From a bacterium (GTDB lineage Bacteria > Patescibacteriota > Minisyncoccia > Phycocordibacterales > DATDWN01): a stretch of DNA of 64,000 nt. The DNA lies in NCBI GenBank assembly GCA_037134875.1, contig JBAXLH010000002.1:27719-91718 (forward strand). The letters are read 5' to 3'. Below are positions 12,674-58,564 of this stretch, in pieces (position 1 is the stretch's first letter; every line of letters starts with the position of its first letter). A program made the position numbers and the translations under genes. The notes beneath the pieces were generated by a model. The model did not search any database. It was not told the DNA's origin and was given only the letters and a program-made list of their open reading frames with translations.

Positions 12674-13705
12674 TTATTTCCCCTCTTTCTCCCCCACAAT
12701 ATTTACGAGGGCGAGTTCGAGTGGGAGAGATGGAATGTATGCACCGGTGGTATTTTCATACGCGGTCAAAAGTTCGACGAGCACAGCGGACGAAAATGTT
12801 TTGCCGAGTTTCGCTGTGTCGCTCACAAACGTAAATTCTTTTTCCGAGAGGTCGGCTCTGACGACGCCAGGCGCATCCAGCTTTGTGAGCATTACGGCGC
12901 GCGCAGTTTGCAAAATAAGTTTGAGAAAAATCGACATATCAATATTTTGACTCGTTGCGGTTTTGATAGCAGTCAGCCCGAGTGCGAGGTCCCCGCGTGC
13001 AATCGCCGAAATCACATCGTGCACGAGACCCACCGCTGGCGCACCGGTCACGAGACGTACTTCATCTTCGGACACTTTTTTATCTGTGCTATACGACAAA
13101 ATTTTCTGGAGCATTCCCTCTGTGTCGCGGAAAGATCCGTCGCCGAGGAGCGCGATGAGCTCGGCTGATGGCTCGTCGATGGTGTACCCCTCTTTCTTTG
13201 CAATAGTTATTACAACTTTTTTCAAAACTTCCTGTGTCGGCTTTTTGAATGTGTAGACTTCGCATCGCGACAAAACAGTTTCAGGAATTTTGCGAGTCTC
13301 GGTTGTGGCGAGAATAAAAATAACGTGTGCAGGTGGCTCCTCGAGTGTTTTGAGGAGCGCATTGCCAGCGGACTTTGAGAGCATATGTGCTTCGTCCAAA
13401 ATGTAAATTTTGTATTTTGATTCAAATGGCAGAGTATTGACCGACTCGTTGAGAGCGCGAATGTCGTCCACACCTGTGTTTGATGCGGCGTCGATTTCGT
13501 AAATGTCGTTTTTGCTCGTGCCGATGCTGGACGCAAAAATGCGCGCGACTGATGTCTTGCCCGTGCCTCGTGTACCAGCAAAGAGATATGCGTGGGAGAC
13601 ATCGCCGGATTTTATTTGTGACTCTAGCACTTTGACCACATGGTCCTGACCGATCACATCTGCAAATTTTTGTGGGCGATATTTTCTGTATAATACTTCT
13701 GACAT
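12674..13705 (-). CDS. dnaX: DNA polymerase III subunit gamma/tau (short form)
   Basis: 343 aa. YRPQKFADVIGQDHVVKVLESQI. Walker A GTRGTGKTSVARIFA. ILDEAHMLS. Confidence 0.9.
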   Translation of the reverse strand: MSEVLYRKYRPQKFADVIGQDHVVKVLESQIKSGDVSHAYLFAGTRGTGKTSVARIFASSIGTSKNDIYEIDAASNTGVDDIRALNESVNTLPFESKYKIYILDEAHMLSKSAGNALLKTLEEPPAHVIFILATTETRKIPETVLSRCEVYTFKKPTQEVLKKVVITIAKKEGYTIDEPSAELIALLGDGSFRDTEGMLQKILSYSTDKKVSEDEVRLVTGAPAVGLVHDVISAIARGDLALGLTAIKTATSQNIDMSIFLKLILQTARAVMLTKLDAPGVVRADLSEKEFTFVSDTAKLGKTFSSAVLVELLTAYENTTGAYIPSLPLELALVNIVGEKEGK

Positions 13706-13734
13706 ATGGACATCATACCAGATTTTTTGACAAA

Positions 13735-13775
13735 CAAAAAACCCTCACCACAAAGTGTGATGAGAGCGGTTGGGA
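13735..13775 (-). terminator. Rho-independent terminator for the ncRNA, immediately upstream of the dnaX start
   Basis: Minus RNA ...CUCAUCACACUUUGUGGUGAGGGUUUUUU. Confidence 0.55.
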
Positions 13776-14275
13776 CCGGCGCGTGCGCTGGCGTCGTGTG
13801 AGAGCCGATGGCCTCGCGCCGATCCCTGTTTTCCAGTCTTTTTTTTCGCGGTTTTTGCTCCGCGCCGGACTATATCAATCATCCGGAATTTTTAGTGGCT
13901 GGTACCAGCCCGACTACTTTGCCTCCAGTAGAGATCTTTCGTGTATAGGCCGTAGCCCGCGACACTACTAGATCAATACCTTCAACGGCGTTTCGTCAGG
14001 GTCTTGGTGTTTAACTCCTTTCTGGGGAGAACCCCACCGAACCATCCCTTTGCTTCGTTGCGCAACCTCCGCTGAAGGCGCTAGAGCGCGGGCCGCCGGG
14101 TCTGGGGAACATTGTCCATCACCATGCCAAGGGAAACTACCGGCTATGATTGCATAGCCACAGTGAACTCTTGATCCCCAGAGTTCGTAGGGGTTTCGGG
14201 CCCGCGCTCAACGGCGAGGATTTATGCCGGTCACGATTTCCGGCGCCCGTCTTGAAGTGTTGAAGAACATTACAT
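13735..14275 (-). ncRNA. Unclassified GC-rich structured non-coding transcript (candidate housekeeping RNA: RNase P RNA / SRP RNA / 6S or other)
   Basis: ~540 nt without a credible ORF between dus and dnaX. GC far above neighbouring DNA. Many perfect hairpins. Bounded by a consensus promoter (14281-14309) and a hairpin plus U6 terminator (13735-13775) on the minus strand. Confidence 0.5.
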
Positions 14276-14280
14276 GATAA

Positions 14281-14309
14281 TAATATCACACTATAAAAAT
14301 ATTGTCAAG
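14281..14309 (-). promoter_or_regulatory. Sigma70-type promoter (TTGACA, 17 nt, extended -10 TGaTATTAT) for the ncRNA unit
   Basis: Minus-strand sequence reads TTGACAaatatttttatagtgtgATATTAT. Confidence 0.6.
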
Positions 14310-14357
14310 CGAATTTTGACAATTTTCAATTATCTTTTTTAGGATTCAAAAATAGCC

Positions 14358-15407
14358 TTATTTTGAGCCACTTTTCAGATAGTCAAAAATAATTTCTTCG
14401 ACTTCACTTGCCTGTTCTGCTTCCATTAGTTTGATACGAAGTTCTTTTGCTCCATCAAAGCCGTTTACGTACGCTTTGAAGTGTTTTTTCATCACAGCAA
14501 ATGACTTGCCTTGTCCGCCGTAGCTTTCAGCGAAGGCGGAGCCTTGCCCATCAGCAGGTTTTGGCTGGACCAATTTCTCAAAAAGTTTTGTGTGCTCCAC
14601 GAGTACCCCTAGTTTCTCCTCGGTCGTCGGTATGTGTCCCGAAAAAAGCCACGGGTTTCCAAAAATCGCACGGCCAATCATCACGCCGTCACAGCCAGTC
14701 GCCAGCGCCTTCTCGCGAGCATCCTCCACACTTGTCACATCTCCATTTCCAAAAATAAGTGTCTCACTTCCCTTTCCACCACTCGCTCGTCTTTCGTTTC
14801 TGATTTCAACAGCTCGTGCGATATGTTCCCACCGCGCCGGCACGAGCGACATTTCTTTTCGTGTTCGTGTGTGGACAGTGATCACGGCCGGCTCGGTGTC
14901 GAGGAGGAGCGGAAGCCACGTTTCGAGTTCATTTTTGTTCCAGCCGATACGAGTTTTGACGGACACAGGAATCTTGCCTGCACCCTCTTTTGCAGACAAA
15001 ATTATTTTTTGTGCGAGCTGTGGATCTGTCATTAGTTTTGCGCCAGCACCTTGCTTTTCTACACTCTTGTCCGGACATCCCATATTGATATCGATACCGT
15101 CAAAGCCGAGCTCGACTGCGAGCTCTGCGGATTTGCGCATCATCTCTGGTTTGGATGTAAAAAACTGCGCCACAATAGGTCGCTCCTCCTCCGTAAAAGC
15201 TAGATCGTTTATGAGAGCATCTCTACCACCGAGAAAAAGTCCGTCGCCAGAGACAAACTCCGTCCATATCACATCCGGTTTGCCGTACTTTGCGATGATT
15301 GCGCGAAACGCTCGGTCGGTCACATCTGCCATCGGCGCAAGACATAGTATTGGCTCATATTTGCCGACTTTTGTTTTTTCCTTTTTTAATTTCTGCCAAA
15401 AATTCAT
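14358..15407 (-). CDS. tRNA-dihydrouridine synthase (Dus family)
   Basis: LCLAPMADVTDRAFR motif. TIM-barrel DINMGCP. Start chosen at MNFWQKL (ATG at 15407). The longer ORF running to 15614 is probably over-extended. Confidence 0.85.
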   Translation of the reverse strand: MNFWQKLKKEKTKVGKYEPILCLAPMADVTDRAFRAIIAKYGKPDVIWTEFVSGDGLFLGGRDALINDLAFTEEERPIVAQFFTSKPEMMRKSAELAVELGFDGIDINMGCPDKSVEKQGAGAKLMTDPQLAQKIILSAKEGAGKIPVSVKTRIGWNKNELETWLPLLLDTEPAVITVHTRTRKEMSLVPARWEHIARAVEIRNERRASGGKGSETLIFGNGDVTSVEDAREKALATGCDGVMIGRAIFGNPWLFSGHIPTTEEKLGVLVEHTKLFEKLVQPKPADGQGSAFAESYGGQGKSFAVMKKHFKAYVNGFDGAKELRIKLMEAEQASEVEEIIFDYLKSGSK

Positions 15408-15458
15408 ATCGTTGACTATAATATATTTTTCTGATATAAACAACCACGGAAAACGACG

Positions 15459-15872
15459 ATGAAGATCTCTGTCGATGTCACTCTTGATCAGGTCTGTAAG
15501 ACTGTTTCTAAAGAAGATTTTGAAAAAGATTCTCCTGAGGATGCAAGTCTGCTGAATCAGACTTTCTATTTGGTAGAAGCAACCTCTCTTGAGATTTGCC
15601 ACCTCTGGGAACACTACAAAGGCAAAGGATTTCCTTCATCATGCACAACATCATTTATGACTCAAATTGGCCAACTCGCCGAGTTCGAGGTTTGGATCAC
15701 TTTGTCTTATTATGAAATCAAAGGAAAAGTCATCTGTTTCTATGAGATGACTGGAAACTATGCTTTCGGAGCGATATGCGAATCATTTTTCAAAAATGTT
15801 GTTCCGCGTTGTCCAACAACAAACGCGGATAATTTTCATAACGTAATGCTCGCAATAGAGTCTGGCAAATAA
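15459..15872 (+). CDS. Hypothetical protein
   Basis: 137 aa ORF filling the gap between dus and the FtsQ-like gene. No recognisable domain. Confidence 0.4.
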   Translation: MKISVDVTLDQVCKTVSKEDFEKDSPEDASLLNQTFYLVEATSLEICHLWEHYKGKGFPSSCTTSFMTQIGQLAEFEVWITLSYYEIKGKVICFYEMTGNYAFGAICESFFKNVVPRCPTTNADNFHNVMLAIESGK

Positions 15873-53322: not shown

Positions 53323-53614
53323 GTGCGTTTATTTTACCAAATCCGAACCTGTTTTCAAAATAGCAATGTTGGCAATGACAACATCGGCAAGTAATGTGCC
53401 ACGCTCCACGCCTGTGGTGATGTGAAGCTAATCGTACGCAAAAGAATTCCGTCACGCCGTAGCGTCCACTACAGCGAACCTCACCGAGCACCTACAGGTG
53501 CTCGTCTCGTCTCGCTTCCGTTCCCGCTCCGTCGTTCCGCCCTCGCCTTTCCCCGCATCCATGCTTTTTTGTTTGCGGCGGTTTTTGAATTTTTTTTGGA
53601 ATGGCGCGGGGAAA
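53323..53614. repeat. Left copy of ~290-bp near-identical inverted repeat (IR-L)
   Basis: Reverse complement of 56306-56598 with about 3 mismatches and 1 indel. Confidence 0.85.
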
Positions 53615-53817
53615 GCTCGGGCGGGTTTCCTCTAAGGAGGAAACTGACGGAATTCACTGCTACGTTATCTGCACTTCAGTGACAACTCTAACATAATCAT
53701 TCGCCTCGGACATTCCTTTGGGCTAGTGGTGATATAAACATTGTGGTTATGTAACGACGCCCAAAACGGAATATGTCCGAAGCTACAAAACAAAAACACA
53801 AGACATTGAAATTGTTA

Positions 53818-54101: not shown

Positions 54102-56319
54102 TTATTCTATAATATTAATTTTATCACGCCAAACGGGATTATTTCTTAGTTCATCCAAAAAACTAGTATCTTCTTCACTTGCATTTGTCAGTGCTGATCG
54201 AGGAATATTTATACTTTCTATATTTTCAAATTTAGGATTTCTGATCTGTGCTTCAAGATACCCATTAAGTGCGGGGCCAACATGAGATTGATTCTTGGCT
54301 TCAGCTTGACGTTTAAGGTCAACAGCTATTAGGGCTTTTGCAAGTGGGGCGTGATCAGCTGATATTTGTCTGCTTCTTGGATTTTCCACATTTTCATATT
54401 CATCTTCTAAAGCCCTATTTCCCTTAAAGCCAGAACCCTTGCTTTTAATTGTTTTGTTAGTCTTACCCGTAACGAAATTTATACCTTGTGCTTCCATTGA
54501 ATCTCCTTCTGTATATGAAGTTTCTGTGTCGGCCTTAAACTTGATGAATATGTCTCCATATTGTTTAGCCCCTCCGTACATATTTTCGTTATTAAAATCA
54601 TGAGCGTATGCACCATATAGCACAACTTCATTGCCATCCCGCCTGACACCCAATGCTTCTTCAACTGCTTTTCTCTTATTATAATATCTAGGACTTAACG
54701 ACCTAAACATTTTCTTCTTTTCGCTAGCACTCAATCCAAATACATCCTTGAATTCTCCAGAGTCAATAACTTTGCGAATTGAACCCATGCTGGTATTGAC
54801 GCTAATAAAACCTGTAGATTGACTGCGTTCAAATTCACTATTAAGCATTTCCGTGAGTTGTTCACGGCTGATTGTTTTTCGAAAATCCTGTCTAGAAACT
54901 GTAGCTTGCTCGTTTGCCTCTCTCGCTAATTGATAAGCTTGCTCGTCTACTCGCCCATCGACGGTCTCTAGTTCATACATATCAGCCAGTGAATCACGAA
55001 TATTTTGGAAAGATCTTTGAAGAGCCTCTCGTTTATCTTCCGGAGCTTCTGCAAGGGCACTATCTTGGTTTTTGGATGATACACCAAAATTTTTATAAAC
55101 ATTATTTTCTAGATATGTAGACATGTCTTCTTCTGGCGATAGGATAGTATCAAATTTTTGGGCAATTGGTGCTTCTGTCACATGAGTAGCAATTTCTTGA
55201 AGAGGAGTTTTTGGTTCGGCCCGAACATCTGGTTTGTGATCAAAACCTTCCGTATTGTTTATCACATCCCCATGACTCTGTGTCATATCTTCTGGCACGT
55301 GTCTCTCAAGGCCTTCTTTTGTTTCAGTCGCTTCAACTGGAATTGTCTTTTCCGTAATGACTGAAGTTTCTGGGGTTTCTGTTGGCTCAAACTGTTTTAT
55401 TTTTTCATATACAACTTTATTATCTTCTAAGCTACCTTCAGAAATTGGTAGAGATTTAACTACAGATTCAGTAACTTGTACTTCTGGAACTGGTATTGCT
55501 TCTTTCTGAAGATCTTTTAATTCAGTCTGTTGCTCTACTTTTTCAACAACAGATTGTTTTTCTGGTAACCCTTCGATATTTACTAGTTTTTCTTCTCTCT
55601 GCTGATCTGGTTTATACTCATCAACAGCGTGTGGAATTTTTAGTGTATAGATATTTTTACTTTCGTTTAATGTCGTATTCCTAAGATCAAGTAGGTTACT
55701 AATTCTTGGAGCATTTTCTGTTTTTAGGAGTTCTTTTTGTTCAGGACTTCTTGCTAAATTAAATCTTGGTGATTGTAAAGGCACTCGTCCTCTACCTGTC
55801 TCATTCGGTAAAGAATTTTGCTTGTTTCCCGAAATTAATTGAGGTTTTTGTTTATTACCGCCAATCGTATTCCCGGCTGAATTTCCACCTGGAATTTTTG
55901 CTAAAACTTTTTTAGCTTTTGAATCAAAATATAATTTAACGATAGTCAATGTACATTCTGGTAGCATATTAACAATTGGGATAAATCCAATAACAGCTCC
56001 AGCGATCATGGTTTTTTTAGAATATGTTTCCCCATTCATTTTGAAAACGAGCCAAAACGTAGCAAAAGCGAAACCATCTATAAACATGGCTAATATTTCA
56101 CCTGCTATCGGTATTAGACTTATAAGAGCTTCGAGCGTATCAAAAAATAGTGCGGTTCCAATTAAAACCATCCATGTCCCTTTTCCAATATTAGATTTAT
56201 TCTCTTCCACAATATGTCTATTATATAACAGACTAAAATCAATCTCAATAAAATTTATGAGGTAATTACTTATCTGCTTATCAATATGATATTGATCCTT
56301 AAAATTTCCCCGCGCCATT
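54102..56319 (-). CDS. Large hypothetical membrane protein with low-complexity linker and uncharacterised C-terminal domain
   Basis: ~740 aa from MARGNFKD (ATG inside the IR edge). The track's GTG-extended start at 56498 only reads through the repeat. N-terminal 4-5 TM helices. Long Q/E/T/P-rich region. C-terminal ~300-aa globular domain. Confidence 0.55.
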
Positions 56320-56598
56320 CCAAAAAAAAATTCAAAAACCGCCGCAAACAAAAAAGCATGGATGCGGGGAAATGCGAGGGCGGAACGACGGAGCGGGAAC
56401 GGAAGCGAGCCGAGACGAGCACCTGTAGGTGCTCGGTGAGGTTCGCTGTAGTGGACGCTACGGCGTGACGGAATTCTTTTGCGTACGATTAGCTTCACAT
56501 CACCACAGGCGTGGAGCGTGGCACATTACTTGCCGATGTTGTCATTGCCAACATTGCTATTTTGAAAACAGGTTCGGATTTGGTAAAATAAACGCACC
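56306..56598. repeat. Right copy of ~290-bp inverted repeat (IR-R)
   Basis: See IR-L. Contains a TTGGCA-17-TAATGT promoter-like sequence pointing into the cargo. Confidence 0.85.
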
Positions 56599-56710: not shown

Positions 56711-56810
56711 CTACTTTTTTTTCGCCGAGGAGGAGGTTCGAAATCAGAAGCAATTTTGACTAATTTATTTTGCTTGCAAGACAAAAAGAATTTTTGCTAT
56801 ACTATGTTTG

Positions 56811-56885
56811 CAACCAACTGATCGAAAGGCTTTTTTAATGGCCGTCTTGGACAATTCGAAGCTTTTCGAGTTGGTTGCACCAGGA
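56811..56885 (+). promoter_or_regulatory. Nested inverted repeats (candidate operator/recombinase-binding site) between a TGn-TATACT promoter and the integrase start
   Basis: gcaaccaact...agttggttgc and aatggccgtc...gacggccatt. Confidence 0.35.
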
Positions 56886-56911
56886 CGGCCATTTAAGTTT
56901 TCAAAATATAT

Positions 56912-58564
56912 ATGAATAATATATCTCCGCAAAAATTCTTTTTGTATGCACGCAAGTCAACCGATGTCGAGGACAAGCAAGTTTTGAGTATTGATGCACA
57001 AATTGCAGAATTGCGCGCTTTCGCCAAAAATGAAAAGTTAGAAATCATGGAGGAATTTGTAGAAAAACGCACTGCGAAAATTCCAGGTCGTCCCATTTTT
57101 GGCGAAATGATGAGACGAATTGAGAAAGGTGAAGTAAATGGTATTTTAGCGTGGCATCCAGATCGTCTCGCGCGCAATTCTGTTGACGGCGGACAAATTA
57201 TTTACTTTGTTGATATCGGAAAACTTACCATGTTGAAATTTCCCTCGCACTGGTTTGAAAATACTCCGCAAGGAAAGTTTTCACTTTCCATGGCGTTCGT
57301 TCAGTCAAAATATTATGTTGATTCTCTTTCCGAAAATACCAAACGTGGACTTCGCCAAAAAGTACGCATGGGTATTTTCCCAAGCCAAGCTCCTCTCGGT
57401 TATATAAACGACAGTAGAACAAAAACGATTGTGGTAGAAAAGAAAAAATCTCGCATTATTCGCTTGGCTTTTGAAAAATATGTTAAAGGTGGTGAGCGAC
57501 TGGAGGATATCGCCACCTTTTTGGCCAAGTCCGGCATATTAACATGGAATGGAAAGAGAATCTCAAAAACTCGCACTTCTTTTATTTTATCAAACCCGTT
57601 CTATGTTGGTTTTTTCAACTACTCGGGAGAATTACACGAAGGCAAACACGAGCCAATCATTTCAAAAAAACTTTTTGATGAAGCACAGGAAATGTTGAGG
57701 TCTCGCGGTCAGCCAGAGCGTAAACCGAAAAACGAACCTCAACCTTTTTGCGGACTCATTTCCTGTGCTTCATGCGGAATGATGATAACTGGCGAACACA
57801 AATTCAAACGGCAGAAAAATGGAAATGTTCACGAGTATACATATTATCGTTGTACCAAAAAACGAAAAGATTTTCATTGTCCCGAATCTGCCGTTAGAGA
57901 AAAAGAATTGGATCGCCAGTTATCATCTCTAATACAAAAAGTTTCTTTGCCCAAAGACTGGGCGGAAGAATTATTGAAAATGGCAGAAAAAGATTTTCAA
58001 AATTCCGCCCCGTCTTTGGTTGCTTGTGTGAAAGAGAAAGAGATCAAAATTTCTGCTATATCACAAAAGTTGGAGCGACTTCTCAATGGCTATTTAGACC
58101 AAGATATTGAAAAGGAAATTTATCGTTCTGAAAAAGCAAAATTATTACTTTCCAAGAAGTCGCTCGAGGAAGAAATGACATCTCTTTCACACAAGCAAAA
58201 TGATTGGCTCGAACCGATGCAGAAGTGGTTAATATCCGCGCAGAATGTGGACAAAATCGCTTCTGATTCAGACCTTTTTGCTAAAAAGGTCTGTGCCAAA
58301 GAAATCTTTGGCTCGAACCTCCTCCTCGACGAAAAAACAGTGCGCGCAAGCGCGCTGGATTCGGGAAATTCCCTTGCAATCCCGCCAAAAAATCCTTGGC
58401 ACGCGCTTTGCGCGTTCCGCTTGGGTTCGGGTTCAGAACCCTTTAGTTCGTTTAAGGTGCCGGAGGGGAGACTTGAACTCCCATCCCTTTCGAGACACGA
58501 TTTTGAGTCGTGCGTGTATACCAATTCCACCACTCCGGCAATACATACAGAATACCCGAAATAG
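56912..58564 (+). CDS. Large serine recombinase (serine integrase)
   Basis: 550 aa. Resolvase catalytic domain (FLYARKSTDVEDKQVLSIDAQ; ILAWHPDRLARN). Recombinase domain. Zinc ribbon (CGLISCASCGMMITG...YYRCTKKRKDFHCP). Coiled coil. The 3' end reads through repeat C' and tRNA-Leu, so the true C-terminus is uncertain. Confidence 0.8.
   Translation: MNNISPQKFFLYARKSTDVEDKQVLSIDAQIAELRAFAKNEKLEIMEEFVEKRTAKIPGRPIFGEMMRRIEKGEVNGILAWHPDRLARNSVDGGQIIYFVDIGKLTMLKFPSHWFENTPQGKFSLSMAFVQSKYYVDSLSENTKRGLRQKVRMGIFPSQAPLGYINDSRTKTIVVEKKKSRIIRLAFEKYVKGGERLEDIATFLAKSGILTWNGKRISKTRTSFILSNPFYVGFFNYSGELHEGKHEPIISKKLFDEAQEMLRSRGQPERKPKNEPQPFCGLISCASCGMMITGEHKFKRQKNGNVHEYTYYRCTKKRKDFHCPESAVREKELDRQLSSLIQKVSLPKDWAEELLKMAEKDFQNSAPSLVACVKEKEIKISAISQKLERLLNGYLDQDIEKEIYRSEKAKLLLSKKSLEEEMTSLSHKQNDWLEPMQKWLISAQNVDKIASDSDLFAKKVCAKEIFGSNLLLDEKTVRASALDSGNSLAIPPKNPWHALCAFRLGSGSEPFSSFKVPEGRLELPSLSRHDFESCVYTNSTTPAIHTEYPK
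58336..58450. repeat. Inverted repeat copy C'
   Basis: Reverse complement of 56598-56710. Confidence 0.8.
58456..58539 (-). tRNA. tRNA-Leu (anticodon CAA), type II with long variable arm
   Basis: Minus strand. Acceptor GCCGGAG/CUCCGGC. D-arm GUG-GAAUUGGUAUA-CAC. Anticodon stem CACGA/UCGUG with loop CUCAAAA. Variable arm UCUCGAAAGGGAU. T-arm GGGAG-UUCAAGU-CUCCC. Discriminator A. CCA not encoded. Confidence 0.85.

What the first reader, a model, noticed from the sequence alone, without database searches (positions are those of the whole stretch)
13735..14310. ~540-nt GC-rich structured non-coding transcription unit upstream of dnaX, with consensus promoter and terminator
The region has no credible ORF and is much more GC-rich than flanking genes. 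It is packed with perfect helices such as GGCUGGUACCAGCC and GGGAUCGGCGCG...CGCGCCGGUCCC. It has its own TTGACA-17-TGaTATTAT promoter and ends in a hairpin plus U6 terminator just before dnaX. The ffs(SRP RNA)-dnaX synteny is classical in many bacteria, so this position suggests SRP RNA. The length also fits RNase P RNA or two concatenated structural RNAs. One 12-mer, GGGGAUCAAGAG, also occurs in E. coli tmRNA, which may be coincidence. I could not place P4 or SRP domain IV consensus convincingly by eye, so identity stays open and it may be a novel large structured RNA.
Basis: partly seen in the sequence, partly recalled or inferred. Interest (0 to 1): 0.6.

Follow-up and report, generated by a model that had tools for sequence, protein, structure and literature searches.

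The report
Orphan structured RNA gene before dnaX
A roughly 540-base stretch between two housekeeping genes of an uncultured ultra-small (Patescibacteria) bacterium looks like a separately transcribed, tightly folded non-coding RNA that matches no known RNA family; related bacteria carry other fast-evolving RNAs of unknown function at the same spot.

Summary
On the minus strand, between dus (14358-15614) and dnaX (12674-13705), lies a near-consensus promoter (TTGACA-17-TGaTATTAT), about 540 nt without a credible ORF, and a 12-bp hairpin plus U6 terminator. The RNA strand folds far better than shuffles (z -4.8) and better than the opposite strand (z -2.2).

It is not SRP RNA, RNase P RNA, tmRNA, 6S or any other Rfam 15 family, even at E<=10. 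ARAGORN finds no tmRNA. As a positive control, the same scan found SRP RNA directly upstream of dnaX in a Bacillota locus.

The body has no detectable homologue in about 170 related loci. Only the promoter aligns. The dus-dnaX gap of related Paceibacteria is nevertheless a conserved slot for RNA genes:
- It holds one to three promoter-terminator units of 150-400 nt, GC-rich in AT-rich genomes.
- One new motif there has a covariation-supported helix.
- A second unknown RNA also occurs there.
- A strand-specific Shine-Dalgarno-like heptamer is enriched, and the window shares it (AGAAAGGAG).

Membership of the window RNA in the new motif is suggestive but not significant.

Verdict: a real, orphan, probably trans-acting structured ncRNA of unknown function. 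Its structure has no covariation support because no close relatives are available.

The parts
14280..14308 (-). Sigma-70-type promoter: -35 TTGACA (14308-14303), 17-nt spacer, extended -10 TGaTATTAT (-10 hexamer 14285-14280)
   Evidence: 11 of 12 consensus positions with TG. This is the only part of the intergenic region that aligns with relatives (L016, L048, L055, L025; E 2e-7 to 2e-4).
13735..14273 (-). Predicted primary transcript of about 540 nt. The start is inferred about 7 nt downstream of the -10; the end is the terminator U-run.
   Evidence: Inferred from the promoter and terminator positions. Fold -213.1 kcal/mol, z -4.79; the opposite strand gives z -2.2. No RNA-seq is available.
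14197..14249 (-). 5' domain: CGGGC/GCCCG closing helix with an inner GCCGG/CCGGC hairpin
   Evidence: Pair probabilities 0.92-0.95.
14165..14186 (-). Hairpin GAACUCU-GGGGAUCA-AGAGUUC; contains the 12-mer GGGGAUCAAGAG
   Evidence: 7 bp, P 0.95. No tmRNA by ARAGORN or Rfam.
14084..14209 (-). Alternative nested helices GAGCGCGGGCC/GGCCCGCGCUC (11 bp, perfect) and UCUGGGGAUCA/UGUUCCCCAGA (11 nt, 91%) enclosing the hairpin GGCUAUG-CAAU-CAUAGCC
   Evidence: I4, I6. A fold forced to contain them is only 3.1 kcal/mol above the MFE.
13868..14159 (-). Long-range rod in the MFE: 14159-14095 pairs with 13914-13868. It competes with the local hairpins listed here.
   Evidence: Helices of 4-7 bp with P 0.86-0.96. 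There is no comparative support for either alternative.
13978..14079 (-). Central domain closed by the 11-bp helix GCCUUCAGCGG/CCGUUGAAGGU
   Evidence: P 0.99. A single-sequence covariance model of this domain found nothing in 100 related loci.
14015..14036 (-). Hairpin UGGGG-UUCU-CCCCA followed directly by the Shine-Dalgarno-like AGAAAGGAG (14023-14015)
   Evidence: The heptamer class is enriched on the RNA strand of syntenic intergenic regions: 16 of 43 forward against 1 reverse, shuffles averaging 3.5.
13897..13910 (-). Palindromic hairpin GGCUGGUACCAGCC. GGGCUGG is the candidate counterpart of motif M3 of the relatives' 'Unit A' RNA.
13839..13864 (-). Hairpin CGCGG-AGCAAAAA-CCGCG followed by A8, starting an A-rich single-stranded linker
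   Evidence: P 0.99; sequence.
13772..13826 (-). 12-bp GC-rich helix GGGAUCGGCGCG/CGCGCCGGUCCC placed just before the terminator
   Evidence: I3; P 1.00. A long GC-rich hairpin sits in the same position in units of relatives.
13735..13767 (-). Intrinsic terminator: 12-bp stem, 3-nt loop, U6
13703..13720 (-). Boundary feature: dnaX's own extended -10 (TGgTATGAT, 13720-13712), ending 6 nt before the ATG (13705-13703). This implies a leaderless dnaX mRNA that does not depend on the RNA unit.
   Evidence: Sequence. The same TATACT-6/7-nt-ATG arrangement occurs in relatives, and dus-dnaX gaps as short as 29-44 nt exist.

Best explanation
This is a stand-alone gene for a highly structured non-coding RNA of about 540 nt. 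It is transcribed from the minus strand by a near-consensus sigma-70-type promoter and ends at a strong intrinsic terminator, independently of the leaderless dnaX gene that follows.

It is the lineage-specific occupant of a conserved RNA-gene slot between dus and dnaX in Paceibacteria (Zambryskibacteria-like Patescibacteria). The promoter, the terminator and the high GC content persist in that slot, while the RNA bodies change in sequence and length (150-540 nt) too fast to align.

Most likely mode of action (inferred, not shown): an abundant trans-acting RNA, acting as an RNP scaffold, sponge or regulator. Its recurrent functional element would be a hairpin followed by the Shine-Dalgarno-like AGAAAGGAG. 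That element could pair with a CCUCC-type partner, either the 16S 3' tail or C-rich RNA targets, in an organism whose own genes mostly lack Shine-Dalgarno sequences.

Shown here: the transcription signals, the absence of coding potential, the strand-specific excess folding energy, the absence from all known RNA families, and the conservation of the slot. Inferred: expression, the actual fold, and the role of the Shine-Dalgarno-like element.
For: - Promoter and terminator are present.
- Folding z is -4.79 on the RNA strand against -2.2 on the opposite strand.
- There is no ORF with a Pfam hit and no tblastx signal.
- GC is 0.51-0.57 against a window mean of 0.41.
- dus-dnaX synteny holds in about 50 loci, with intergenic regions often at GC 0.50 in loci at 0.37-0.42.
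- 27 of 44 non-redundant intergenic regions carry a strict TTGAC[AT]-N16-18-TAnnnT promoter, and 38 of 44 carry terminators.
- The window's promoter aligns with those of L016, L048, L055 and L025.
- The nearest relative with upstream sequence available (80% DnaX, L168) has a 150-nt promoter-hairpins-terminator unit at the same place.
- The Shine-Dalgarno-like heptamer occurs in 16 of 43 intergenic regions on the RNA strand against 1 on the other strand.
- Relatives' units include a motif with a covarying 6-bp helix: 97% of cells paired, 4 of 6 pairs compensatory, 0 of 500 shuffles as good.
- Most genes of the window lack a Shine-Dalgarno sequence.
- dnaX has its own extended -10 ending 6 nt before the ATG.
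Against: - There is no expression data.
- No homologue of the RNA body was found by nhmmer, blastn or covariance models, so none of the window's helices has covariation support.
- Seven contigs from several samples are 100% identical across the region, so they carry no information on selection.
- Two global folds lie within 3 kcal/mol of each other.
- Covariance models of the relatives' motif score the window at only 5.5-6.3 bits.
- In relatives the GAG of the Shine-Dalgarno-like motif appears to pair locally with CUC of GCUCAUCC. The motif may therefore be structural rather than an exposed pairing site, and its predicted unpaired probability in the window is only 0.47.
Confidence: 0.5

Rival explanations
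1. It is a highly divergent SRP RNA (ffs), as the classical ffs-dnaX synteny would suggest.
For: Position directly upstream of dnaX. The same arrangement with a bona fide SRP RNA was recovered in a Bacillota locus (L075 3800-3894, 57.8 bits).
Against: - No SRP family hit even at E<=10 in an 851-nt search.
- No domain IV string of the form AGG-3 nt-GNRA-3 nt-AGCA, and no GGAAGCAG, in the region.
- At 540 nt it is 2-5 times the size of any bacterial SRP RNA.
- No SRP RNA lies next to dnaX in about 50 other Patescibacteria loci.
- The bodies at this slot are not conserved, whereas the Ffh-binding site is nearly invariant across life (established knowledge).
Confidence: 0.03
2. It is another housekeeping RNA (RNase P RNA, tmRNA or 6S RNA) too divergent for the models.
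For: The length is in the range of RNase P RNA or tmRNA. It has a strong promoter of the kind seen on stable RNA genes. The MFE contains a long rod. GAAAGG...CCACC strings in relatives loosely recall the RNase P CR-II and CR-III regions (my recollection only).
Against: - No Rfam hit for RNaseP_bact_a/b, tmRNA or 6S at E<=10 in the window or in the intergenic regions of L026 and L014.
- ARAGORN is negative in the window and in 12 loci.
- GGAAAGUCC occurs nowhere in the RNA region and ACAGAA..CGGCUUA nowhere in any sequence searched.
- The covarying helix in relatives pairs CCCAG with a downstream CUGGG, which is not the RNase P topology.
- The sequence is not conserved among genera, unlike the catalytic cores.
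Confidence: 0.03
3. It is a long cis-acting leader or attenuator that controls dnaX. Transcription from the strong promoter would read into dnaX only when the terminator is bypassed.
For: It lies on the same strand, and the terminator ends about 30 nt before the dnaX ATG. The terminator U-run overlaps the place where a dnaX -35 would sit. Mini-ORFs such as MPP-stop lie behind a strong Shine-Dalgarno sequence in some relatives and could act as leader peptides.
Against: - dnaX has its own extended -10 ending 6 nt before the ATG, conserved in relatives. dus-dnaX gaps as short as 29-44 nt, with no room for an RNA unit, also exist.
- Relatives carry two or three complete promoter-terminator units in tandem.
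- No alternative antiterminator pairing with the terminator's 5' arm stands out in the ensemble: terminator pair probability is 0.95.
- No known riboswitch or leader family matches.
Confidence: 0.1
4. It is not a functional RNA. It would be a decaying remnant, such as a pseudogene, a relic of a mobile or foreign element, or a variable spacer, that happens to be GC-rich and to fold.
For: The body is an orphan found in one population only. The nearest relative with upstream sequence available has only 150 nt here. Contigs from other samples break inside the region, at about 13979 and 14276, which hints at strain heterogeneity.
Against: - A consensus promoter and a strong terminator bracket it exactly.
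- The folding excess is strand-specific.
- There is no protein similarity in any frame.
- There is no match in phage, plasmid or viral collections.
- No terminal repeats of note were found.
- GC content well above the genome background is seen at this slot in many lineages, which neutral decay in AT-rich genomes would erase.
Confidence: 0.15
5. It is an mRNA, or a dual-function RNA, for one or more very small proteins translated from the Shine-Dalgarno-like site.
For: AGAAAGGAG is a perfect extended Shine-Dalgarno sequence. In several relatives it is followed at 6-10 nt by AUG CCN CCG stop or similar, giving MPP*, MPPG*, MDSPPG*, MSP*.
Against: - In the window no AUG, GUG or UUG lies within 4-12 nt of the motif (sequence UUAAACACCAAGACC).
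- The L014/L026-type members also lack a usable start or have zero spacing.
- In the closely related pair L017/L023 the reading frame downstream of the motif differs in length and sequence.
- The conserved CCACC(C) belongs to a covarying RNA helix.
Confidence: 0.07

Closest known systems
SRP RNA gene (ffs/scr) upstream of dnaX in Bacillota
   Same: Same genomic position and orientation relative to dnaX; a GC-rich structured stable-RNA gene with its own promoter. The arrangement was verified here in L075.
   Different: No helix 8 / domain IV signature and no covariance-model score. It is 2-5 times longer. The body is not conserved between genera.
Large bacterial ncRNAs of unknown function found as GC-rich intergenic regions in AT-rich genomes (OLE, ROOL, GOLLD, raiA, HEARO)
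   Same: Size class above 400 nt, heavy predicted structure, GC excess over the genome, and a stand-alone transcription unit.
   Different: No match to any of their Rfam models. Those classes are conserved across many genomes with strong covariation, whereas this RNA has no alignable homologue at all.
Fast-evolving abundant regulatory RNAs kept at a syntenic locus (Ms1 or 6S-like RNAs; CsrB/RsmZ-type sponges)
   Same: The promoter and locus are conserved, the body is poorly conserved and variable in length, it ends in an intrinsic terminator, and a short recurrent single-stranded motif is the only shared element. The comparison rests on established knowledge of those RNAs.
   Different: No 6S model hit. 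GGA motifs are not enriched: about 10 by my hand count of the sequence, against about 9 expected from composition. Only one Shine-Dalgarno-like motif occurs per unit. No partner protein is identified.
'Unit A' RNA motif of related Paceibacteria, defined here (L014, L016, L017/L023, L026, L028, L033, L034, L038, L096, L004)
   Same: Same slot, strand and promoter type. It has a hairpin followed by AGAAAGGAG, a possible 6-bp helix CCUGAC/GUCGGG followed by CUGG, a UUGAAGG element inside, and a long GC-rich hairpin before the terminator.
   Different: It lacks the GCUCAUCC element. The covariance-model score is not significant: 6.3 bits at E 0.2 in 2 kb, and 5.5 bits at E 7.3 in the whole window. 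The candidate helix crosses an 11-bp helix with probability 0.99.

Membership tests
Bacterial SRP RNA (RF00169 / RF01854) | Domain IV (helix 8): GNRA tetraloop flanked by the symmetric loop with AGG ... AGCA, the Ffh-binding site | tested here: not met
   No SRP family hit at E<=10. The regexes for the motif and for GGAAGCAG have no match in the region. Positive control: L075 scores 57.8 bits.
Bacterial SRP RNA (RF00169 / RF01854) | Synteny ffs-dnaX (supportive, not defining) | tested here: inconclusive
   The position fits. No Patescibacteria locus scanned has an SRP RNA next to dnaX.
RNase P RNA (RF00010 / RF00011) | P4 helix formed by CR-I (GGAAAGUCC) and CR-V (ACAGAA..CGGCUUA); covariance-model match | tested here: not met
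   No hit at E<=10. The strings are absent from the region.
tmRNA (RF00023 and permuted forms) | tRNA-like acceptor/T-arm domain plus a tag reading frame | tested here: not met
   ARAGORN finds only three tRNAs in the window. No Rfam hit. The shared 12-mer lies in a local hairpin.
6S RNA (RF00013) | A rod of about 180-200 nt with a large central bubble; covariance-model match | tested here: not met
   No hit at E<=10. The transcript is about 540 nt. The MFE rod spans about 300 nt and has an alternative fold 3 kcal/mol away.
Known large ornate RNAs (OLE, ROOL, GOLLD, HEARO, raiA) | Match to the family covariance model | tested here: not met
   All 4227 Rfam 15 models were scanned on both strands.
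Riboswitch / T-box / ribosomal-protein leader | Known aptamer model, and an expression platform coupled to the downstream gene | tested here: not met
   No Rfam hit. dnaX has its own promoter ending 6 nt before the ATG.
   UGGGGUUCUCCCCA followed by GAAAGGAG at 14036-14015.
   The window has UUAAACACC instead.
   CCUGAC/GUCGGG followed by CUGG exists. The loose descriptor matches in 1.7% of shuffles and the strict one in 0 of 5000, but the descriptor was designed after seeing the window. The helix crosses an 11-bp helix with P 0.99.
   R1: 6.3 bits, E 0.2 in 2 kb; this is the top hit and in the correct register. R2: 5.5 bits, E 7.3, rank 13 in 64 kb.
Stand-alone bacterial ncRNA gene (generic) | Own promoter, no ORF, intrinsic terminator, structure beyond chance | tested here: met
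   Transcription itself cannot be tested with these tools.

The most novel reading that the evidence does not exclude
The dus-dnaX slot of Paceibacteria encodes a previously unrecognised class of abundant, rapidly diversifying structured RNAs, and this 540-nt RNA is its largest known member. These RNAs would present a perfect Shine-Dalgarno mimic to the otherwise under-used anti-Shine-Dalgarno tail of the ribosome, or would act as decoys in a host-parasite or phage arms race, which would explain the hypervariable bodies behind a conserved promoter. That would be a new ribosome-directed or defence-related RNA system in ultra-small symbiotic bacteria.
Probability: 0.15. Interest if true: 0.8.

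Novelty: categorically new. Interest (0 to 1): 0.55.

Why it matters
Patescibacteria have tiny genomes of about 0.6-1 Mb with little spare DNA. A 540-nt, strongly promoted, heavily folded non-coding gene there is therefore unlikely to be idle. Large bacterial ncRNAs of unknown function are rare, and several turned out to be unusual ribonucleoprotein machines.

The wider result may matter more than the single locus. The dus-dnaX gap of a whole clade is a conserved RNA-gene slot. It holds at least two RNA motifs unknown to Rfam, one with a covarying helix, and bodies that evolve too fast to align. This gives RNA biologists a defined set of loci for covariation analysis, metatranscriptomics and biochemistry in a phylum where almost nothing is known about regulatory RNA. 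If the Shine-Dalgarno mimic is functional, it bears on how translation initiation works in organisms that largely lack Shine-Dalgarno sequences.

Tried and rejected
1. Known RNA families. Rfam was run at the gathering thresholds on the window, and at E<=10 on the region and on the intergenic regions of L026 and L014. ARAGORN was run on the window and 12 loci. Motif regexes were run for SRP and RNase P. All were negative.

2. Sequence homologues of the RNA body.
   - nhmmer and blastn against 160 dnaX loci from genome and metagenome collections found nothing.
   - Exact-protein look-up of DnaX gave 7 contigs identical across the region.
   - A 5.8-billion-protein search showed the nearest DnaX at 82%, 80% and 79% identity. 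The 82% contig has no upstream sequence, and the 80% contig carries only a 150-nt unit.
   - A single-sequence covariance model of the central domain gave 0 hits.

3. Coding or pseudogene. tblastx against all loci and Pfam on the ORFs were negative.

4. Mobile or phage origin. blastn against phages and plasmids, and two IMG/VR pattern scans, were negative.

5. Linking the window to the relatives' motif.
   - An nhmmer profile recovered only its seeds.
   - Covariance models R1 and R2 recovered non-seed relatives but not the window at a significant score.

6. Resemblances by eye between GAAAGG...CCACCC...GGGCUAGG and the RNase P CR-II/III/V regions, the SRP Alu domain or CsrA-binding sites. These were rejected because the covariance models give no score, the helix topology differs, and GGA motifs are not enriched.

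7. Literature. Five searches or look-ups on Patescibacteria ncRNA, SRP RNA and Shine-Dalgarno usage, plus one preprint on intergenic features, gave nothing relevant.

8. A further model of the shared 3' module (GC-rich hairpin, CA-rich linker, terminator) was considered and not built. Such a generic hairpin model would not discriminate.
Full report
**1. What is there**

The finding lies in the 652-nt gap between two minus-strand genes.
- Upstream is a tRNA-dihydrouridine synthase gene (14358-15614; Pfam Dus, 1.6e-59).
- Downstream is a short dnaX (12674-13705; DNA_pol3_delta2, 1.8e-35).
- tRNA-Gln follows dnaX.

Read on the minus strand, the gap contains these signals:
- TTGACA (14308-14303), a 17-nt spacer, then TGaTATTAT (-10 at 14285-14280). 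This matches 11 of 12 consensus positions and has the extended -10 TG.
- About 540 nt of GC-rich sequence.
- A 12-bp hairpin (13767-13741) followed by U6.
- dnaX's own extended -10 (TGgTATGAT, 13720-13712), ending 6 nt before the ATG.

The 2-kb region has 7 promoter-like sites against 1.7 expected.

**2. Coding or not**

- Only ORFs of 41-99 aa overlap the region.
- None has a Pfam match at E<=1.
- tblastx of the whole gap against 80 related loci gives nothing better than E 0.14.
- There is no similarity to phage or plasmid records or to IMG/VR contigs.

A frameshifted pseudogene or a mobile-element relic is therefore not supported.

**3. Structure**

- The minus-strand RNA (14275-13735) folds to -213.1 kcal/mol. 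Dinucleotide shuffles give -182.9 +/- 6.3, so z = -4.79, and 0 of 100 shuffles do as well.
- The opposite strand reaches only -198.8 kcal/mol, z = -2.2. This fits an RNA read from the minus strand.
- High-probability elements:
  - a 5' domain (14249-14197);
  - a hairpin at 14186-14165;
  - an 11-bp helix closing a central domain (14079-14069 / 13988-13978, P 0.99);
  - a hairpin followed by AGAAAGGAG (14036-14015);
  - CGCGG/CCGCG followed by A8 (13864-13839);
  - the 12-bp helix 13826-13815 / 13783-13772 (P 1.00);
  - the terminator.
- The global fold is ambiguous. The MFE pairs 14159-14095 with 13914-13868 into a long rod.
- A fold with the perfect nested helices GAGCGCGGGCC/GGCCCGCGCUC and UCUGGGGAUCA/UGUUCCCCAGA, plus the local palindromes, is only 3.1 kcal/mol worse.
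- GC is 0.51-0.57 against 0.41 for the window.

**4. Known families**

- Rfam 15 (4227 models, both strands) finds only three tRNAs in the window.
- An E<=10 search of 13600-14450 gives three chance-level hits to unrelated sRNA families and nothing for SRP, RNase P, tmRNA, 6S, OLE, ROOL, GOLLD, HEARO or raiA.
- ARAGORN finds no tmRNA.
- The SRP domain IV pattern and the RNase P CR-I/CR-V strings are absent from the region.
- Positive control: the same scan found Bacteria_small_SRP (57.8 bits) immediately upstream of dnaX in a Bacillota locus, L075 3800-3894. The synteny clue is valid in Firmicutes and the tool detects it.
- About 50 Patescibacteria dnaX loci showed only tRNAs.

**5. Organism and relatives**

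- DnaX relatives identify the source as a Paceibacteria (Zambryskibacteria-like) member of the Patescibacteria.
- The window is part of MAG GCA_964547445.1, contig CAZJNJ010000002.1.
- Seven contigs from ENA, JGI, NCBI and Logan samples are 100% identical over the gap and its flanks apart from contig ends. They carry no information on selection.
- Two contigs start at window position ~13979 and one at ~14276, that is, inside the RNA and at its 5' end. This may reflect strain-level branching in the assembly graphs.
- The nearest other DnaX proteins among 5.8 billion are 82%, 80% and 79% identical, so no close congener is available.

**6. The body is an orphan, the slot is not**

- nhmmer and sensitive blastn of the 541-nt RNA against 160 related loci give no hit.
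- A covariance model of the central domain gives none in 100 loci.
- Yet dus-dnaX synteny holds in about 50 loci. The gap ranges from 29 to about 1700 nt and is often at GC 0.50 in loci at 0.37-0.42.
- In all-against-all comparison, the only part of the window's gap that matches other loci is the promoter region (E 2e-7 to 2e-4 with L016, L048, L055, L025).
- K-mers shared by many gaps are promoter words (TTGACTTATTT, GTTATACTGT) and terminator words (GCGGTTTTTT).
- Of 44 non-redundant gaps, 27 have a strict promoter and 38 a terminator. Many have two or three units in tandem.
- The closest relative with upstream sequence (L168, 80% DnaX) has a 150-nt promoter-hairpins-terminator unit here.
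- The units share a 3' layout: a long GC-rich hairpin, a short C/A-rich linker, then the terminator. The window follows this layout.

**7. New motifs in relatives**

A recurrent strand-specific element is a hairpin followed by (A/G)AAAGGAG(G), the exact complement of a CCUCCUUU 16S tail.
- AAAGGAG or AAGGAGG occurs in 16 of 43 non-redundant gaps on the RNA strand against 1 on the other strand. Shuffles average 3.5, with a maximum of 10.
- This is notable because most genes of the window have no Shine-Dalgarno sequence.

In one subgroup this element heads a longer motif, which I call 'Unit A'. Its order is AGAAAGGAG, a small hairpin, GCUCAUCCACC, CCCAGU, UCAAAGG, hairpin(s), ACUGGG, then CUAGGAAAAAUAC.
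- A covariance model seeded with five members recovered the non-seed members L033, L096, L038 and L034 (E 1e-3 to 1e-2), and L004 more weakly.
- In the 11-member alignment the 6-bp helix is 97% paired and 4 of 6 pairs show compensatory changes (12 cells).
- 0 of 500 shuffles reach the observed score, and the slid controls collapse.
- RNAalifold predicts the same six pairs.

A second unknown RNA, 'Unit B' (about 225-260 nt), follows Unit A in L014, L034 and L096, and follows an unclassified upstream unit in L090. Neither unit matches Rfam.

Some units carry mini-ORFs behind the Shine-Dalgarno-like site (MPP*, MPPG*, MDSPPG*, MSP*). Start codons are missing or mis-spaced in others and in the window, and the CCACC(C) segment is part of the covarying helix. 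I therefore read the element as RNA-level.

**8. Does the window RNA belong to Unit A?**

Suggestive, but not shown. In favour:
- It has the hairpin followed by AGAAAGGAG, a possible CCUGAC/GUCGGG helix followed by CUGG, and UUGAAGG inside.
- With filters off, model R1's best hit in a 2-kb region is exactly this stretch (14035-13884, minus strand), in the expected register.

Against:
- That R1 hit scores only 6.3 bits (E 0.2).
- Model R2 gives 5.5 bits (E 7.3, rank 13) over the whole window.
- The GCUCAUCC element is missing.
- The candidate helix crosses the 11-bp helix with P 0.99.

A descriptor search matches in 1.7% of shuffles in its loose form and in 0 of 5000 in its strict form. The descriptor was tuned after seeing the window.

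**9. Interpretation**

The best-supported reading is a stand-alone, probably abundant, structured ncRNA gene. It would be the lineage-specific occupant of a conserved and fast-evolving RNA slot.

dnaX does not need it. dnaX has its own extended -10 ending 6 nt before the ATG, which implies a leaderless mRNA. dus-dnaX gaps as short as 29-44 nt, with no room for an RNA unit, also exist.

The function is unknown. I commit, at low confidence, to a trans-acting RNA whose hairpin-plus-Shine-Dalgarno-mimic element pairs with a CCUCC-type partner. Rival explanations are given separately with probabilities: cis attenuator, non-functional remnant, small-protein mRNA, and divergent housekeeping RNA.

The main weakness is that nothing can be aligned to the window's RNA. 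Its structure rests on thermodynamics, strand asymmetry and signal placement alone.

**10. Novelty and score**

No family in Rfam 15 and no paper in the searchable library describes this RNA or the Unit A and Unit B motifs. I rate it as a new RNA with no known kin, of moderate interest (0.55). It is a genuine candidate in a phylum with almost no characterised regulatory RNA, but it has no covariation, no expression data and no mechanism yet.

Noticed in passing
L014 3534-3641, L026 1299-1399, L016 3460-3574, L017 3624-3740, L028 2933-3033, L033 3176-3323, L034 2051-2172, L038 2705-2803, L096 1593-1710, L004 3816-3910: A new RNA motif ('Unit A') lies in the dus-dnaX gap of related Paceibacteria. 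It has conserved blocks (AGAAAGGAG, GCUCAUCCACC, UCAAAGG, GGGCUAGGAAAAAUAC) and a 6-bp helix with compensatory changes in 4 of 6 pairs. It has no Rfam match.
   Followed up: yes
L014 3730-3975, L034 2322-2584, L096 1915-2178, L090 2205-2471: A second unknown RNA unit ('Unit B', about 225-260 nt) follows Unit A or another unit. It has its own promoter and terminator and conserved blocks (GGAGAAUAC, GCAAAG..AGUGGAAC, CUGAGCA.UAAGGG, and the hairpin GGGUCCACGG...CCGUGGCCC). It has no Rfam match.
   Followed up: partly
L003, L009, L011, L100, L055, L031, L006 (dus-dnaX gaps): Mini-ORFs of 3-6 codons ending in Pro-Pro-stop or similar (MPP*, MPPG*, MPPN*, MDSPPG*, MDSPPK*, MSP*) sit 6-10 nt behind a strong Shine-Dalgarno-like site inside the RNA units. 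More distant loci have ...RDGP* and ...RDSP*. They could be stalling leader peptides or a by-product of a conserved RNA motif.
   Followed up: partly
window 13703-13720 (minus strand) and the equivalent sites in L001-L060: dnaX appears to be leaderless. An extended -10 (TGgTATGAT; TATACT in relatives) ends 6-7 nt before the ATG, and the -35 position is occupied by the upstream terminator's U-run.
   Followed up: partly
whole window (65 crude ORF calls): Very few genes have a Shine-Dalgarno sequence; the sequences upstream of start codons are AT-rich. The perfect extended Shine-Dalgarno mimic inside the RNA therefore stands out.
   Followed up: partly
window 53323-53597 and 56323-56597: A 275-nt inverted repeat, 99% complementary, flanks 2.7 kb that encodes a 798-aa protein with no Pfam domain. 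The ORFs at 53422-53682 (+) and 54102-56498 (-) share identical 5' ends. A large serine recombinase gene (56912-58564; Resolvase, Recombinase and Zn_ribbon_recom domains) lies next to it. This looks like an invertible, phase-variable cassette.
   Followed up: partly
window ~13979 and ~14276: Contigs from other samples (ERZ27300082, JGI 3300020163, SRR7053536) that are otherwise identical begin exactly inside the RNA or at its 5' end. This hints at strain-level variation of the RNA's 5' half in the population.
   Followed up: no
L011 3165-4001; L016 3229-4001: Tandem duplication of RNA units. The two units of L011 share nearly identical 3' ends (CACGCCGACUUGCUUAAAUGU.AGCGGUGUUUUU), which shows that the slot evolves by duplication as well as by divergence.
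   Followed up: no
window 56750-56911: Another TTGACT...TATACT promoter is followed by a short structured leader upstream of the recombinase gene.
   Followed up: no
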